A stretch of DNA of 64,000 nucleotides from assembly GCA_037308085.1 (NCBI GenBank), contig CP147779.1, forward strand, positions 736,001 through 800,000. The letters run 5' to 3'. The number at the start of each line of letters is the position of its first letter. The first letter of the stretch is position 1. Below are positions 43,582 to 59,427 of the stretch, piece by piece. The position numbers and the translations under genes are program-made. The notes below the pieces were generated by a model. It was not told the origin of the DNA and ran no database searches. It was given only the letters and a program-made list of their open reading frames with translations. Origin of the DNA: Promethearchaeati archaeon SRVP18_Atabeyarchaeia-1. GTDB lineage: Archaea; Asgardarchaeota; Atabeyarchaeia; Atabeyarchaeales; Atabeyarchaeaceae.

Positions 43582-45102
43582 GTGAAGATGCAAGGAAAGG
43601 AAATCGGATCGGTGGTTTGCACTATTGATGGGCCAAGCTCAACAGAGTTTAGCTTCGTTGTGACAAGATCGACTGAGGGCGATGTACCAGTCAGGAGAGG
43701 ACAGCTCGTTGAGCTCAAGGGAGAAGAAGGGGAAGTCATAGGATCCGTAACTGAGATCCTGAAGACCAACAGGTACTTCGAGAGGGCTGAGGCTGTCAAG
43801 GAATTTGAGAGAAGCGCCCCAATTAGGACAATCTTTCCAGTTGACAGGTGGGAATATGTAATCGCAACTGCAAAATTGATGGGGGTGCGCAACAGTGCAA
43901 ACGGAAGATTCGTGAAGGCGGATTACCCACCAAGCCCCGGTGAAAAAGTCTACCTAGCTGAGGATGAACTGATATCCGACATTTTGGGTTTCGAACGCGA
44001 GGATGGGTTATACCTCGGAACGCTCTACCAGCACAGCACGAAAGTGAGCCTTAATCTCACGAGGCTTCTGCAGAAACATGCCGCCTTACTCGGAATCTCC
44101 GGCGGAGGGAAGTCGTATCTTGCCTCTGTGATGATCGAGGAGTTGCTCTCGCGAAGAAAGGAGCAGGGGCGTTTAGCCATAGTTGTCGTTGATGTTCACG
44201 GAGAGTACACTTCTCTTGCAGAGAAACCCAGTGAAACCAGCATTGAGGATTACTCGGGTAGGGTTACAGTCGTCAAGGGGAGTTACTTTGAAATCGCCGC
44301 GCGCCACCTGAGTCCGGTCCTGATGATGGAGCTCGCTCCTCAGATGTCGGTGATCCAAGCTAGGGAACTAAGCAGAATATTCGATGGCGTGAAGAAGAGG
44401 TCGATGGAGTCGAAACAGCCATTCTCCTTGCCAGACATAATCAAAGACGTGGAATCAGACGAACACATAAATCCAAGGAGCAAGGAGGCTTTACTGGGGT
44501 GGCTCTTTGACCTCGAGAGCCTGAAAATCGTCGGACGTGAAGAGAACCCTAGCCTCGACGACGCGTTGGCGCCTGGTAAAGCGGTGATAATTGATCTCAG
44601 CGACACCGTGAATCTGCGCAGGAAGCAGATTATCGTCACCTATCTCGCAACGAGGCTGTTCTCGCTGAGGAGAAGAGAAGAGGTTCCTCCCTTTGTGATG
44701 ATCCTAGAAGAGGCACACCAGTTTTGCCCTGAAGGAAGCAAGATCCGCGCGCCTTCGAGAGGGATCATTGAGACGATAGCGAGGGAAGGAAGGAAATTCT
44801 TTGCATCACTTGTCCTGATCAGCCAGAGGCCAGTAAGGCTATCAACAACAGTGTTATCACAGTGCAACACTCACATCGTGATGAGGGTTACAAACCCCTA
44901 TGACCTTCAGCATATCGGTGAGAGCAGTGAGGGTATTGATCGTCCTGCTCTCGACATTATCTCGTCCCTGCGGGCAGGGGAAGCGCTCATAGTGGGCTCA
45001 GCAGTGAATTTTCCGATCTTCATGTCAATAAGAAAAAGGAAGTCCAACGAGCCTCGGCTTTCAAGAAGCCTTGAAGAGGTTGCTAGGCGCTTCGATTCCT
45101 AG
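43582..45102 (+). CDS. herA: HerA-family helicase/ATPase
   Basis: HAS-barrel N-domain, KHAALLGISGGGKSY, D.HGEY, LEEAHQF, IAREGRKF, SQRP. Confidence 0.9.
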   Translation: MKMQGKEIGSVVCTIDGPSSTEFSFVVTRSTEGDVPVRRGQLVELKGEEGEVIGSVTEILKTNRYFERAEAVKEFERSAPIRTIFPVDRWEYVIATAKLMGVRNSANGRFVKADYPPSPGEKVYLAEDELISDILGFEREDGLYLGTLYQHSTKVSLNLTRLLQKHAALLGISGGGKSYLASVMIEELLSRRKEQGRLAIVVVDVHGEYTSLAEKPSETSIEDYSGRVTVVKGSYFEIAARHLSPVLMMELAPQMSVIQARELSRIFDGVKKRSMESKQPFSLPDIIKDVESDEHINPRSKEALLGWLFDLESLKIVGREENPSLDDALAPGKAVIIDLSDTVNLRRKQIIVTYLATRLFSLRRREEVPPFVMILEEAHQFCPEGSKIRAPSRGIIETIAREGRKFFASLVLISQRPVRLSTTVLSQCNTHIVMRVTNPYDLQHIGESSEGIDRPALDIISSLRAGEALIVGSAVNFPIFMSIRKRKSNEPRLSRSLEEVARRFDS

Positions 45103-45108
45103 TGCCTG

Positions 45109-45384
45109 CTAGCGAAATGCTATAATAACCCTGTCGACGGCGGGCTCGCAGATCTTACGTACACCGTGGACTCCGGGTTCGTAGCGGGCTTTCACTAAGC
45201 CAGCTTCTTCAAGAATCTTGATCTGCGCTGATATGTTTGCCTCAGTCTGGCTCAGAGTGAGTGCGATTCTGCTGACATCGATTCCTCTTCTCTGAAGCAG
45301 TTTCATTATCTCCCATCGTGTCGGAGATGCAAGGGCTTTGGCCAGTTTGGACACGTCATCGCCGCTGATCTCGATCTCGGACAT
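45109..45384 (-). CDS. ArsR-family HTH regulator
   Basis: KALASPTRWEIM.LL....VSRIA..L.QTEANISAQIKILEEAGLV. Confidence 0.82.
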   Translation of the reverse strand: MSEIEISGDDVSKLAKALASPTRWEIMKLLQRRGIDVSRIALTLSQTEANISAQIKILEEAGLVKARYEPGVHGVRKICEPAVDRVIIAFR

Positions 45385-45589
45385 TTTGCATCAACTCACT
45401 AGATTAGCTACAGCCTGAAACAGCGACCGCGTTGGCGGTTGTTCTGTTCTGCTATACATTTAGTCCTCTCACTATTTAATATTTGCTTTGTCTATACAAT
45501 GATCCCGGCGTTTCTATGCTTAAGAAAGTCTTTAAGCTTAGCAGCTCACTATTTTGCTCTTGATGGCGAGAGATGATTTCACCCAATTC

Positions 45590-46547
45590 ATGAAACCTCT
45601 AAGAAGGAGGTATCCAGAGATTCGCTCAGCAAGGATCTTCAGAACGATAGACGACATGGACACGAAGATACTTGGATCAATAGAGCTAGGGATGCGGAGA
45701 TTCGAGTTTGTTCCAATAGAAGAGTTGCTGAAGATGACTAGGCTTTCGAGGAACGACCTTGACTTCCGTCTTTCAAAGCTTCTCAAGAAGGAGTTGGCTA
45801 GACGCTGGGTTGGTTCGTACGTTGGCTTTGAAGTTAGTCAGGTTGGCTATGACTGCCTAGCGTTTCATGCGTTAGTCAAGGAGAACGTGCTGGAAGCTAT
45901 AGGTCCGCCCGTGGGCGTCGGGAAGGAATGCACATGCCGCCAACTACGGCCTGCAGAGTGGTCAGCAGTGCACTGAGTCTGACGTCTACAGGGTTTCATT
46001 GACCTCAGGGGAACCCGCAGTCATCAAGCTCCACAGACATGGCAGAACGAGTTTCCGAACTGTAAGGAGGACAAGGGGATATGTAGCTGACAGAAGGCAT
46101 ACATCCTGGCTGTATATCTCGAGACTGGCAGCGACAAGAGAATATTTGGGGCTTCAGAGGCTCTACCCTGCCGGGGTATCCGTTCCCAAACCCATTGCCC
46201 AGAACAGGCATGCTATTGTAATGGGGGTAATCGAAGGTAACTCACTGGCGGAGTGCCATGTCCTGCGCAGACCTTCCAGAATGCTAGATGAAATCATCGA
46301 GAATATTAAGAAGGCCTACATCAAGGCTGACATTATTCATGCAGATCTGAGCGAGTATAATGTTCTGGTGACGCCGAAACTCAAGACTCTAATTATCGAT
46401 TGGCCTCAATGGATTAGCTCAAACCATCCCAACTGGCGCTTCTACCTTGAGAGAGATCTGACGAACATACTGAATTTCTTCGAAAGAAAATTCGGAATAA
46501 GGAAGGAACTCTCAGAAGTTTTTGCTTACGTGACGTCTCCCAAGTGA
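45590..46547 (+). CDS. rio2: RIO2 serine/threonine kinase, interrupted by a 49-nt insertion (join 45590-45927, 45977-46547)
   Basis: N-terminal wHTH, GYDCLA, restored GVGKESDVY, KLHR.GRTSF, A.RE, IHADLSEYN, IIDWPQ; start codon uncertain. Confidence 0.88.
45928..45976 (+). other. Putative mRNA intron (BHB-like) in rio2
   Basis: Removing these 49 nt restores the frame and the conserved motif; TGCAC/GTGCA intron stem, 12-bp exon-exon helix, GA|A and GA|G junctions. Confidence 0.6.
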
Positions 46548-47167: not shown

Positions 47168-48142
47168 TTAGGCTGGGCGTATGTTCGTCTGTTCTGTTCG
47201 AAGTGGGGTTGGTTGGTTCTCTTTTGGTTGTTTCTCTGTTCTGTGTTTCTCATAGTATACTCTCGTCCAGTAACCTCGCGTTGGTTTTTGAATACCGAGT
47301 CTATCACATCTTCTCGTTACCGCTCCATCTGTAACGTTGTACCTGGTAGCAATGTGTATCAAGGGCATTTCTTGCACTAATCGTTCTGGTTCTTCCTTCG
47401 TGATTGCTCTCCATTCACTCTGTAGTTCTCTTCTTCTTTGAATCTTCTCGGGTGTGTGAGCTTCAGCGGCTCTACGTGCTTTTTCCTTTGGATCACATGG
47501 AAACCATCGTTTTCTAGGCATGCTCTGAGTGTAGTTCTTCATCATCTCATTGAACAACCTGGCACCAAGGCACATGATGCATTCAGTTCCCTTTGTCTTT
47601 CGACCAAGTATCACTTCTTCGTCTGCGCGTCTATGAATCCTGTATCCCAGATCAAACCTATCTTTGACCTGTTCCACAAATCGGATGTTGCCAGACGTGA
47701 TCGCTGTCGTATGCTGTATTCCGTCGCCGTCATAGTAGCCTAGTAGAAAGGCGAGTTCCAGATCTCTGCGAGGCAACTTCGGATATTCAATTCGCTTTGA
47801 TTTTCTAGGGATAAGTCCATGTGTCAGAAGATCGTTGCCCATTTTTCTGCAGGCGAAGATAATCAGAGTTGATACCTTTCCGTTCTTCTCCGTCACGTGT
47901 TTCTTTTTGTCTTTGTTAAGCCCAAGGCAGTCGCAGTACTTTTCGATCGTTTCTTCGTCTTTTTGACTAAGCTTCATTACAATTTCCATTGCTCCAGTTC
48001 TAGAGTCTCTCTTGATGCAGCCGTCGGCGAAGAGAAATCCTAGCCAATATGCTTTCTCTTTCGTGTCTATTTTGCCAAAGTAATTGAGTTTCAGGTTCGG
48101 GTGGACTGTATTCGCTTTCCACTTCTCGTACCATCGCTCCAT
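47168..48142 (-). CDS. Free-standing double-motif LAGLIDADG endonuclease-like protein with C-terminal HTH
   Basis: KAYWLGFLFADG and FLLGYYDGDG motifs; IATRYNVT..AV.RRC.RLGI HTH; GGAGG before ATG 48142. Confidence 0.8.
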   Translation of the reverse strand: MERWYEKWKANTVHPNLKLNYFGKIDTKEKAYWLGFLFADGCIKRDSRTGAMEIVMKLSQKDEETIEKYCDCLGLNKDKKKHVTEKNGKVSTLIIFACRKMGNDLLTHGLIPRKSKRIEYPKLPRRDLELAFLLGYYDGDGIQHTTAITSGNIRFVEQVKDRFDLGYRIHRRADEEVILGRKTKGTECIMCLGARLFNEMMKNYTQSMPRKRWFPCDPKEKARRAAEAHTPEKIQRRRELQSEWRAITKEEPERLVQEMPLIHIATRYNVTDGAVTRRCDRLGIQKPTRGYWTRVYYEKHRTEKQPKENQPTPLRTEQTNIRPA

Positions 48143-48307
48143 CTGAACATTCTTCCTCCAGGTGCTCTTTGTCATATGGTTTTTCAGTCCCTTCTCTCTC
48201 TGCAACGTTCTACGAGTCACAGCGCCTGGGGAAAGGCTTCGCACAGTGAATACATCCTTTAATGTGCACATCACAGGAATGCTCGCTAGCTATGGTTGCT
48301 TTCTCAA

Positions 48308-59330: not shown

Positions 59331-59427
59331 GGGCGGGTAGTCTAGATTGGTATGATACAGACGGTGAAGTCCGTCGTCAATGTGGCTCGGGACCACGTGG
59401 TCGTGGGTTCAAATCCCACCTCGCCCA
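59331..59427 (+). tRNA. tRNA-Pro(CGG) with a 23-nt intron at 27/28 (59359-59381)
   Basis: GGGCGGG/CTCGCCC-A acceptor; BHB with TGAT/GTCA helix and AC|A, AT|G bulges; spliced anticodon arm CGTGG-CTCGGGA-CCACG; GTTCAAATC T loop. Confidence 0.9.

What the first reader, a model, noticed from the sequence alone, without database searches (positions are those of the whole stretch)
45911..45993. Candidate mRNA intron in the RIO2 kinase P-loop
Seen: rio2 is split into two frames by a 49-nt insertion (45928-45976) exactly inside GVGK-E-SDVY. Removing it restores GVGKESDVY and a ~302-aa kinase with intact catalytic motifs and no other lesion. The insertion is a hairpin (TGCAC...GTGCA) containing the in-frame stop. 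The flanking exons pair over 12 bp (GTGGGCGTCGGG/TCTGACGTCTAC), and the junctions GA|A and GA|G fit cleavage after the second base of 3-nt bulges. Caveat: the central helix is only 2 bp (AG/CT), so it is not a canonical BHB. Established: archaeal mRNA introns are known mainly from cbf5. Inference: splicing may control a ribosome-maturation kinase in an organism whose tRNAs show a relaxed-specificity endonuclease.
Basis: partly seen in the sequence, partly recalled or inferred. Interest (0 to 1): 0.82.

Follow-up and report, generated by a model that had tools for sequence, protein, structure and literature searches.

The report
tRNA-type intron splitting Asgard rio2
The only Rio2 kinase gene of this Asgard archaeon (Atabeyarchaeia) is interrupted inside its ATP-binding loop by a conserved 49-base insert that very probably has to be cut out of the mRNA by the tRNA-splicing enzymes, a kind of intron published for only one other archaeal coding sequence (cbf5).

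Summary
The rio2 gene is split into two frames by 49 nt placed exactly between the codons of GVGKE and SDVY. Exon 1 aligns to human RIOK2 residues 16-106 and exon 2 to residues 107-288, with no gap.

The insert is not a lesion. Thirteen distinct Atabeyarchaeia-clade sequences carry an insert at the same codon boundary. These are two complete genomes, one MAG and ten metagenome contigs. Insert lengths are 44-52 nt, in all three phases, and each one stops or shifts the frame.

Both exons are under strong purifying selection (dN/dS 0.04-0.2; synonymous sites saturated between deep lineages). This is the only Rio2 gene in the genome. The exon-exon, central and intron helices stay 95% paired, against 35-43% in slid controls, and some pairs covary.

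The genome encodes a catalytic and a non-catalytic EndA paralogue of the crenarchaeal broad-specificity type, plus RtcB. I verified canonical bulge-helix-bulge (BHB) introns in two other coding genes, ahcY and gatE.

The rio2 motif itself is not canonical. Its central helix has 2 of 4 Watson-Crick pairs here and 3 of 4 in most relatives.

No RNA data could be found, so splicing, the exact junction and any regulatory role remain inferred. This scan had already noted such introns in other genes of this and related genomes, but not in rio2.

The parts
45554..45928 (+). rio2 exon 1: winged-helix Rio2_N domain and the first half of the P-loop, ending ...GVGKE. The start codon is uncertain (TTG 45554, ATG 45563 or ATG 45590), giving a spliced protein of 302-314 aa.
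   Evidence: Pfam Rio2_N 2.8e-19. Aligns to human RIOK2 residues 16-106. dN/dS is 0.07-0.2 among close relatives.
45929..45977 (+). 49-nt intron with the preferred boundaries GAA|U...AG|U. The alternative 45928-45976 encodes the same protein.
   Evidence: Same-site inserts of 44-52 nt occur in 13 distinct sequences. Only this junction keeps the invariant Glu in Atabeyarchaeia-2. Single copy in the genome.
45978..46547 (+). rio2 exon 2: SDVY... and the RIO kinase domain, with VIKLH Lys, HADLSEYN catalytic loop and IDWPQ metal-binding Asp. Includes the stop codon.
   Evidence: Pfam RIO1 5.8e-53. Aligns to human RIOK2 residues 107-288. dN/dS is 0.04-0.09. No ATG/GTG/TTG lies in frame before 45999.
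45911..45922 (+). 5' strand of the exon-exon helix h (GUGGGCGUCGGG). It pairs with 45978-45989.
   Evidence: Present in the MFE fold. 96.8% of cells are paired in 13 sequences, with CG/UG/UA variation at one pair. 12 of 12 positions pair here, against a mean of 7.5 of 12 in 134 intron-less genes.
45978..45989 (+). 3' strand of the exon-exon helix h (UCUGACGUCUAC).
45923..45926 (+). 5' strand of the central helix position (AAGG). A45924-U45974 and G45925-C45973 pair. A45923.G45975 and G45926.A45972 are purine-purine mismatches in this genome. In 10 of 13 relatives G-C forms at the 45926 position.
45972..45975 (+). 3' strand of the central helix position (ACUG here; CCUC or CCUG in most relatives).
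45927..45929 (+). 5' bulge AAU, invariant in 13 sequences. The proposed cut follows its second base (45928|45929). In this genome U45929 can instead pair with A45972, which makes the bulge GAA (45926-45928).
   Evidence: The cut position is inferred from the cbf5/BHB rule (PMC2738675).
45976..45978 (+). 3' bulge position AGU, with the proposed cut at 45977|45978. In the MFE fold U45978 is wobble-paired with G45922, so this side is a 1x3 internal loop rather than a clean 3-nt bulge.
45930..45971 (+). Intron hairpin. The stem h' is GCAC (45930-45933) with GUGC (45968-45971), plus an inner variable stem-loop.
   Evidence: 93.8% of cells are paired. Compensatory CG/UA/UG changes occur at the second pair and CG/UA at the fourth.
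45974..45976 (+). In-frame TGA that ends translation of the unspliced message, giving a 140-aa product without a kinase domain.

Best explanation
**What it is.** The window comes from Atabeyarchaeia-1, a complete 2.81-Mb Asgard genome. Its single rio2 gene carries a 49-nt protein-spliced ('archaeal', tRNA-type) intron between the Glu and Ser codons of the P-loop GxGKES.

**Predicted RNA fold.** In the pre-mRNA, the codons for VGVG pair with the codons for SDVY in a 12-bp exon-exon helix. A short central helix and an intron hairpin follow. The two splice sites sit in unpaired stretches on opposite strands, which gives a relaxed bulge-helix-bulge arrangement.

**Proposed mechanism (inferred, not shown).** The heteromeric splicing endonuclease cuts at both sites. 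It consists of a catalytic alpha subunit and a non-catalytic beta paralogue of the crenarchaeal broad-specificity type. RtcB then joins the exons, which the long exon-exon helix holds together. The result is a 302-314-aa Rio2 with an intact P-loop.

**Consequence of not splicing.** Unspliced mRNA yields only a 140-aa N-terminal fragment.

**Origin.** The intron was gained at or before the last common ancestor of the sampled Atabeyarchaeia and has been kept since.

**Shown versus inferred.** Shown: the anatomy, conservation, selection, the enzyme genes, and sister introns in the same genome. Inferred: the cleavage and ligation, the exact junction, and the enzyme responsible.
For: 1. **Exact junction.** Exon 1 aligns to RIOK2 residues 16-106 and exon 2 to residues 107-288.
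2. **Recurrence.** Thirteen distinct sequences have an insert at the same codon boundary. Lengths are 44, 45, 46, 48, 49 and 52 nt, so all three phases occur, and every one has a stop or a frameshift.
3. **Clade-wide split gene calls.** Among 5.8 billion proteins, every relative at 71% identity or more is a truncated call with only the RIO domain (113-204 aa). Every relative at 59% or less is full length (266-318 aa, apart from one partial call of 206 aa on an 880-bp contig). In six of the seven contigs fetched, the gene calls are split; four upstream products match Rio2_N, and the seventh contig lists only the RIO-domain gene.
4. **Purifying selection on both exons.** dN/dS is 0.04-0.2, and pS is 0.74-0.87 between deep lineages.
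5. **Structure conservation.** 95.4% of cells are paired versus 35-43% for slid partners. Pairs 27-69 (CG 7, UA 4, UG 1), 29-67 and 15-80 covary. RNAalifold finds the same structure independently.
6. **Extra RNA-level constraint.**
   - Synonymous differences around the junction are 0.27, against 0.57 in the rest of the gene.
   - Of the seven sequences scored, six pair at 12 of 12 positions in the exon helix and one at 11; intron-less genes average 7.5 with a maximum of 11.
   - Random synonymous codon choice gives 12 of 12 in only 1% of trials.
7. **Single copy.** There is only one Rio2_N domain in the genome.
8. **Enzymes present.**
   - Two EndA paralogues score above the Pfam cut-off.
   - One carries the Tyr/His/Lys catalytic residues and is most similar to the Aeropyrum pernix alpha subunit (3p1z_B, 5e-46). 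The Crenarchaea-specific-loop Lys is aligned.
   - The other paralogue lacks the His.
   - RtcB is present at 2e-175.
9. **Sister introns.** The same genome has canonical hBHBh' introns in ahcY (34 nt) and gatE (41 nt). Both have 4 of 4 central pairs and 3-nt bulges. The Pfam coordinates of the ahcY halves follow on across the break (PF05221, whose profile is itself interrupted by the NAD-binding domain), while gatE leaves 14 profile positions unaligned.
10. **Literature.**
   - 92-95% of tRNA genes in these genomes have introns, often at non-canonical positions (PMC11291895).
   - Many of those introns lack canonical BHBs (10.64898/2026.10.13.758758).
   - Heterotetrameric EndA cleaves relaxed motifs outside a tRNA context, as shown for cbf5 (PMC2738675).
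Against: No spliced transcript, circular intron or junction peptide has been seen.

The motif fails the strict BHB definition.
- The central helix has 2 of 4 standard pairs in this genome and 3 of 4 in 10 of 13 relatives.
- The 3' site lies in a 1x3 internal loop whose third base can wobble-pair.
- In the strict BHB register the exon helix is only 2 bp. The stable 12-bp helix is offset from that register by one base.

Covariation is limited. Only 3 pairs have changes on both sides. The sequences are related, and the exon helix is partly dictated by conserved amino acids.

The fold z-score of the single sequence is only -2.4.
Confidence: 0.8

Rival explanations
1. Translational bypassing (ribosome hopping, as in phage T4 gene 60). 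The ribosome takes off at the Glu codon, skips the structured 44-52 nt and lands before the Ser codon. No RNA cleavage would be needed.
For: The gap is about 50 nt, contains a hairpin and stops the frame. In this genome and three relatives a GAA or GAG codon precedes UCN, so take-off and landing codons could match.
Against: In 9 of 13 sequences the triplet before UCN is CAA, CAG, CAC or UAA, so no landing codon matches. There is no stop codon directly after the take-off codon. The conserved features are an exon-exon helix and opposed unpaired stretches, which bypassing does not require. The genome has clear canonical BHB introns in other coding genes.
Confidence: 0.04
2. The gene is genuinely split. 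A 140-aa winged-helix fragment and a separately initiated ~182-aa kinase fragment are made, and they work together or alone without any RNA joining.
For: Gene callers annotate the locus this way in every relative. Both halves are under purifying selection.
Against: The break lies inside the P-loop GxGKES. The conserved codons SDVYRVS that follow the insert have no in-frame ATG/GTG/TTG before 45999, so they would not be translated, yet they are conserved. The tail that the insert would add to fragment 1 is not conserved in sequence or length. The RNA helices are conserved and covary. Synonymous sites around the break are unusually conserved.
Confidence: 0.07
3. The gene is a decaying pseudogene, or the insert is a mobile element (MITE) or an assembly artefact.
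For: There is a frameshift with a premature stop in an otherwise recognisable gene. A GA repeat lies at both ends of the insert.
Against: dN/dS is 0.04-0.2 on both exons, with saturated synonymous divergence. This is the only Rio2 in the genome. The same site is interrupted in 13 independent assemblies from different samples. The 49-mer is single copy, with no hit longer than 13 nt elsewhere.
Confidence: 0.02

Closest known systems
cbf5 pre-mRNA intron of Crenarchaeota (Aeropyrum, Sulfolobales, Desulfurococcales; Watanabe 2002; Yokobori 2009, PMC2738675)
   Same: Both are short introns inside the coding sequence of an essential RNA/ribosome-biogenesis enzyme, placed within a catalytic motif. 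Both usually have an unconventional (relaxed) BHB. Both occur in hosts with a heterotetrameric EndA and many non-canonical tRNA introns. Both are clade-restricted, with gain and loss.
   Different: The gene (rio2) and the phylum (Asgard/Atabeyarchaeia) are different. The central helix is weaker, with 2-3 standard pairs. The exon-exon helix is unusually long at 12 bp. Splicing of cbf5 was shown by cDNA and in-vitro cleavage; here it is inferred.
Canonical hBHBh' introns in ahcY and gatE of the same genome (G000:C1:488226-488259 and 2219068-2219108)
   Same: Same genome, same size class (34-49 nt), coding-sequence location and frame-breaking effect. Presumably the same enzymes act on them.
   Different: Those two have 4 of 4 central pairs and clean 3-nt bulges. 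The rio2 intron does not, and it relies on a much longer exon helix.
BHB intron in the 5' UTR of Haloferax volcanii HVO_1309 mRNA (Schwarz 2020, PMC7714728)
   Same: An mRNA substrate of the archaeal splicing endonuclease.
   Different: It lies in a UTR and does not interrupt the reading frame. Its motif is canonical and its enzyme is homodimeric.
Non-canonical tRNA introns of Atabeyarchaeia and Freyarchaeia (PMC11291895; 10.64898/2026.10.13.758758)
   Same: Same lineage and same presumed machinery. A large share of those introns also lack a canonical BHB.
   Different: The host RNA there is a tRNA, whose body helps to position the enzyme and hold the exons. Here the host is an mRNA.
IRE1/RtcB splicing of XBP1/HAC1 mRNA in eukaryotes
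   Same: Non-spliceosomal, endonuclease-plus-RtcB removal of a short frame-shifting intron from an mRNA.
   Different: A different endonuclease (IRE1) recognises twin stem-loops. That system is regulated by stress; no regulation is shown here.

Membership tests
Archaeal protein-spliced (EndA/RtcB) intron in a coding sequence | The insert interrupts the reading frame, and its precise removal restores a contiguous, conserved protein. | tested here: met
   Exon 1 aligns to RIOK2 16-106 and exon 2 to 107-288. GVGKE|SDVY matches the gap-free motif found in 134 intron-less genes.
Archaeal protein-spliced (EndA/RtcB) intron in a coding sequence | The insert is conserved at the same site in relatives while the exons stay under purifying selection. 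| tested here: met
   13 distinct sequences carry it. dN/dS is 0.04-0.2.
Archaeal protein-spliced (EndA/RtcB) intron in a coding sequence | The spliced RNA exists in the cell. | not testable with these tools
   No RNA holder was listed, and no reads were laid from four metatranscriptome runs.
Archaeal protein-spliced (EndA/RtcB) intron in a coding sequence | The host encodes a splicing endonuclease and an RtcB ligase. | tested here: met
   Two PF01974 paralogues are present: alpha with catalytic residues and beta without. RtcB scores 2e-175.
Canonical bulge-helix-bulge (hBHBh') motif | A 4-bp central helix. | tested here: not met
   2 of 4 standard pairs in this genome and 3 of 4 in 10 of 13 relatives.
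Canonical bulge-helix-bulge (hBHBh') motif | Two 3-nt bulges on opposite strands, each 3' of its central-helix strand. | tested here: inconclusive
   The 5' bulge AAU is clean and invariant. The 3' side is a 1x3 internal loop in the stable fold and becomes a 3-nt bulge only if the terminal G.U of the exon helix opens.
Canonical bulge-helix-bulge (hBHBh') motif | Flanking helices h (exon-exon) and h' (intron). | tested here: met
   h is 12 bp with 96.8% of cells paired. h' is 5 bp with 93.8% paired and shows compensatory changes.
Canonical bulge-helix-bulge (hBHBh') motif | Cleavage after the second nucleotide of each bulge gives the in-frame product. | tested here: inconclusive
   The rule holds for this genome with the 2-bp reading (GA|A, GA|G). 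For most relatives it holds only if an A.C or A.G mismatch is counted as the fourth central 'pair'. The actual cuts are unknown.
Relaxed BHB class (3 of 4 central pairs; preprint 10.64898/2026.10.13.758758) | [quoted passage not shown] | tested here: not met
   Met in 10 of 13 relatives. Not met in this genome or its two closest relatives, which have 2 of 4.
RIO2 kinase (Rio2_N + RIO domain) | An N-terminal winged helix, a P-loop GxGKES, a catalytic HxDLSxxN loop and a metal-binding IDxxQ. | tested here: met
   Pfam hits. The translation shows all these motifs. The PDB alignment is to RIOK2.

The most novel reading that the evidence does not exclude
The rio2 intron may be one visible piece of obligate, genome-wide mRNA splicing by the tRNA-splicing machinery in Atabeyarchaeia, relatives of the eukaryotic ancestor. 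Its degenerate motif would show that this enzyme can process an mRNA with only a 2-3-bp central helix, provided a long exon-exon clamp holds the substrate. That would be structure-guided mRNA splicing well beyond the BHB rule. Because the intron sits in the P-loop of a kinase that licenses small-subunit maturation, splicing efficiency could also couple ribosome production to the capacity of the RNA-splicing system.
Probability: 0.2. Interest if true: 0.85.

Novelty: new member of a known kind. Interest (0 to 1): 0.7.

Why it matters
**Rarity.** The papers searched report one coding-sequence intron of this type in Archaea (cbf5) and one in a 5' UTR. A conserved, frame-breaking intron in the single rio2 gene of an Asgard archaeon adds a new case. 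Together with the ahcY and gatE introns I verified in the same genome, it suggests that protein-dependent mRNA splicing may be routine in a lineage close to the origin of eukaryotes.

**Annotation.** Every public gene call for Rio2 in this clade is truncated or split. Proteome and pathway inferences for these genomes therefore miss or misdescribe the protein.

**Enzymology.** The motif departs clearly from the BHB rule. That makes it a good natural substrate for defining what the broad-specificity (alpha-beta)2 endonuclease really needs.

Tried and rejected
1. **RNA evidence.** The look-up of sequencing runs listed no RNA holder. Laying four metatranscriptome runs from the same studies gave zero reads or contigs. 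This says nothing about expression or splicing.

2. **Genome-wide scan for other coding-sequence introns.** I looked for a strict hBHBh' motif combined with an ORF-fusion criterion. It gave as many hits as decoys in which the ORF test was shifted by 1-2 nt (about 1,640 versus 1,560-1,680 sites). Tightening ORF length or helix length gave an excess of only 20-30 sites or none. The scan is uninformative, because adjacent genes mimic exon pairs. It did recover ahcY and gatE.

3. **Relaxed local scan around other leads.** I scanned around the earlier notes for rpl39e, pcm, valS, the RuBisCO-like protein and EndoQ. The scan was too noisy to confirm them, so they remain untested by me.

4. **A strict BHB for rio2.** I searched for one under every in-frame junction. 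None exists.

5. **MITE or repeat reading.** Rejected, because the insert is single copy.

6. **Pseudogene reading.** Rejected on dN/dS and on copy number.

7. **Ribosome hopping.** Considered unlikely, because most relatives lack a matching landing codon.

8. **Literature search for coding-gene BHB introns in Asgard.** It found only tRNA-intron papers. Absence from this library does not prove the finding is unpublished.

Full report
**What is there.** At window 45911-45993 the sequence reads GTGGGCGTCGGGAAGGAA, then TGCAC...GTGCA, then CTGAG, then TCTGACGTCTAC. The upstream frame (from 45554) carries a Rio2_N winged-helix domain (Pfam 2.8e-19). It ends ...GVGKE, runs on through 16 unrelated codons, and stops at TGA 45974-45976. 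The downstream frame (45978-46547) carries the RIO kinase domain (5.8e-53) and begins SDVYRV. Exon 1 aligns to human RIOK2 (6fdm_A) residues 16-106 and exon 2 to residues 107-288. Removing 49 nt therefore restores the protein without gaining or losing a residue. The spliced product is 302-314 aa, depending on the start codon. It contains the VIKLH lysine, the HADLSEYN catalytic loop and the IDWPQ metal-binding motif.

**Whose genome.** The window is G000:C1:736001-800000 of a closed 2,808,651-bp genome. Its nearest relatives are named Candidatus Atabeyarchaeum deiterrae (Atabeyarchaeia-2, CP147780) and a 'Promethearchaeati' MAG, LC30. The window therefore belongs to the Atabeyarchaeia class of Asgard archaea. 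By size and kinship it is the Atabeyarchaeia-1 complete genome of Valentin-Alvarado et al. 2024 (PMC11291895). That paper reports introns in 92-95% of tRNA genes, often at non-canonical positions.

**The insert is conserved, not a lesion.** In a first search of 40 relatives, only the two genomes of the same family showed short open frames at rio2 (194 and 224 aa). All other Asgard genomes had about 290-330 aa. Reading the DNA showed an insert at the identical codon boundary.

- Scans of species-representative genomes and of metagenome contigs added four more sequences.
- The protein database plus contig look-ups added six more.
- In total, 13 distinct sequences have an insert of 44, 45, 46, 48, 49 or 52 nt between GAA (Glu) and UCN (Ser).
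- All three length phases occur, and each insert stops or shifts the frame. The insert is therefore never an in-frame extension.
- Among 5.8 billion proteins, every relative at 71% identity or more is a truncated product with only the RIO domain (113-204 aa). Every relative at 59% or less is full length, apart from one partial call on an 880-bp contig. No intron-less allele was seen inside the clade, and no insert was seen outside it.

**The gene is functional.** Between the deep lineages, synonymous sites are saturated (pS 0.74-0.87), while dN is 0.10-0.26. Among the four closely related metagenome sequences, dN/dS is 0.07-0.20 for exon 1 and 0.04-0.09 for exon 2. The genome has a single Rio2_N domain, so there is no intact second copy. 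The codons SDVYRVS directly after the insert are conserved. They have no in-frame ATG, GTG or TTG upstream of 45999, so they can be translated only as a continuation of exon 1.

**RNA structure.** The minimum-free-energy fold and the independent RNAalifold consensus agree on four elements.

- A 12-bp exon-exon helix, 45911-45922 with 45978-45989.
- One unpaired A.
- A short central helix.
- An intron hairpin, with unpaired stretches on both strands.

On the 13-sequence alignment, 95.4% of cells form standard pairs, against 35-43% when partners are slid by 1-3 columns. Pair 27-69 appears as CG (7), UA (4) and UG (1). Pair 29-67 appears as CG and UA. Pair 15-80 in the exon helix appears as CG, UG and UA.

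The exon helix is partly a by-product of the amino acids. In 134 intron-less rio genes the same codons pair at 7.5 of 12 positions on average, with a maximum of 11. Random synonymous codons for VGVG/SDVY give 12 of 12 in only 1% of trials. Of the seven intron-bearing sequences scored, six have 12 of 12 and one has 11. Synonymous differences in the ten codons around the junction are 0.27, against 0.57 in the rest of the gene (Fisher p = 0.002; the pairs are not independent). This points to selection on the RNA as well as on the protein. The P-loop codons also seem pre-adapted to form the exon helix that such an intron needs.

**Where the cuts are.** Three junctions give the same length. All 168 contiguous P-loop motif matches in the loci fetched up to that point have Lys-Glu-Ser/Ala. 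In Atabeyarchaeia-2 only GAA|U...CAC|UCC keeps the Glu; the other two junctions give Asp. The junction common to all 13 sequences is therefore after GAA and before UCN, which makes the intron 45929-45977.

Under that reading the spacing matches a canonical BHB, with six nucleotides from the start of each central-helix strand to its cut. However, the four central positions are A.C or A.G, then A-U, then G-C, then G-C or G.A. One extra G also lies opposite the 3' site. That G wobble-pairs with the first exon-2 base in the stable 12-bp register.

In this genome and its two closest relatives the pair G-C at 45926/45972 is replaced by U45929-A45972. Only RNA data can decide between the two.

By strict criteria the motif is not a BHB. 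ahcY and gatE in the same genome are perfect hBHBh' motifs, with 4 of 4 central pairs and 3-nt bulges. The Pfam coordinates of the two ahcY halves follow on across the break within PF05221, whose profile is itself interrupted by the NAD-binding domain. For gatE, 14 profile positions at the break remain unaligned.

**Machinery.** The genome has two EndA paralogues.

- One is 209 aa, carries the catalytic Tyr/His/Lys, and is most similar to the Aeropyrum pernix alpha subunit (3p1z_B, 5e-46). The alignment is gap-free through the Crenarchaea-specific loop, including the Lys at A. pernix position 44. The role of that Lys is recalled from Hirata et al. 2011, not tested here.
- The other is 241 aa and lacks the His, as beta subunits do.
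- RtcB is present.

Heterotetrameric EndA is the type known to cut relaxed motifs outside tRNA, as demonstrated for cbf5 (PMC2738675; PMC12397907). In Atabeyarchaeia and Jordiarchaeia tRNA genes, only about 58% of annotated introns and 35% of missed introns sit at canonical BHBs (10.64898/2026.10.13.758758). A relaxed substrate therefore fits this lineage.

**Rivals.**

- *Ribosome hopping.* It needs matching take-off and landing codons. Nine of 13 sequences have CAA, CAG, CAC or UAA before UCN.
- *A genuinely split kinase.* It would leave the conserved SDVY untranslated and the P-loop broken. It also does not explain the conserved helices.
- *Pseudogene, MITE or artefact.* These are excluded by selection, by single-copy status and by 13 independent assemblies.

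**What is not shown.** No transcript evidence could be obtained. I found nothing for or against regulation.

**Novelty.** In the papers searched, BHB introns in archaeal mRNAs are reported for the cbf5 coding sequence and the HVO_1309 5' UTR only (PMC7714728; PMC2738675). The Asgard papers treat tRNA introns only. Earlier notes of this scan had flagged similar introns in other genes of this and related genomes. They had not flagged rio2. I checked two of those leads myself (ahcY, gatE) and could not check the others. The rio2 case is a new member of the cbf5-type class. It is notable for its position in the P-loop, its long exon clamp and its clearly sub-canonical motif.

Noticed in passing
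G000:C1:488226-488259 (locus L195:1227-1260): A 34-nt canonical hBHBh' intron in ahcY. The central helix is CCAG/CUGG and the bulges are UGU and ACA. Removal gives ...GHPSEVMDMSF, and the Pfam AdoHcyase coordinates continue across the break.
   Followed up: yes
G000:C1:2219068-2219108 (locus L196:569-609): A 41-nt canonical hBHBh' intron in gatE. The central helix is AGGC/GCCU, both bulges are AGA, and the intron stem is 9 bp. The GatB_N profile is split 2-30 and 45-276.
   Followed up: partly
window 47168-48274 (-): A free-standing 368-aa ORF with a LAGLIDADG_3 domain (1.9e-07) lies just downstream of rio2. In three relatives the downstream neighbour is an isochorismatase gene instead, so this may be an inserted homing-endonuclease-like gene.
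   Followed up: partly
window 59331-59427 (+): A 97-nt tRNA gene (Rfam 39.8 bits). ARAGORN cannot assign its anticodon, presumably because it is interrupted by introns, as published for this lineage.
   Followed up: no
window 45911-45989 and the P-loop codons of 134 intron-less rio genes (loci L005-L191): The codons for xGxG and S/A-x-V-Y are intrinsically complementary, with a mean of 7.5 of 12 positions pairing. The P-loop is therefore a ready-made site for the exon-exon helix of a BHB-type intron.
   Followed up: partly
window 45554-45600; L033, L112-L115 upstream of the conserved RRxPxIRS: The start codon of rio2 is unclear. Candidates here are TTG 45554, ATG 45563 and ATG 45590. Several relatives have no ATG upstream of the conserved N-terminus and probably use TTG or GTG.
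   Followed up: no
Public protein sets (P0001-P0015, P0114; loci L197-L203): All public gene calls for Rio2 in this clade are truncated or split into Rio2_N and RIO1 ORFs. This includes the NCBI product named RIO2 (191 aa) of Ca. Atabeyarchaeum deiterrae.
   Followed up: yes
window 45109-45384 (-) and 43582-45102 (+): An ArsR-type HTH gene lies divergently upstream of rio2, and this neighbour is conserved in relatives. A HerA-like DUF87 ATPase lies upstream of that.
   Followed up: partly
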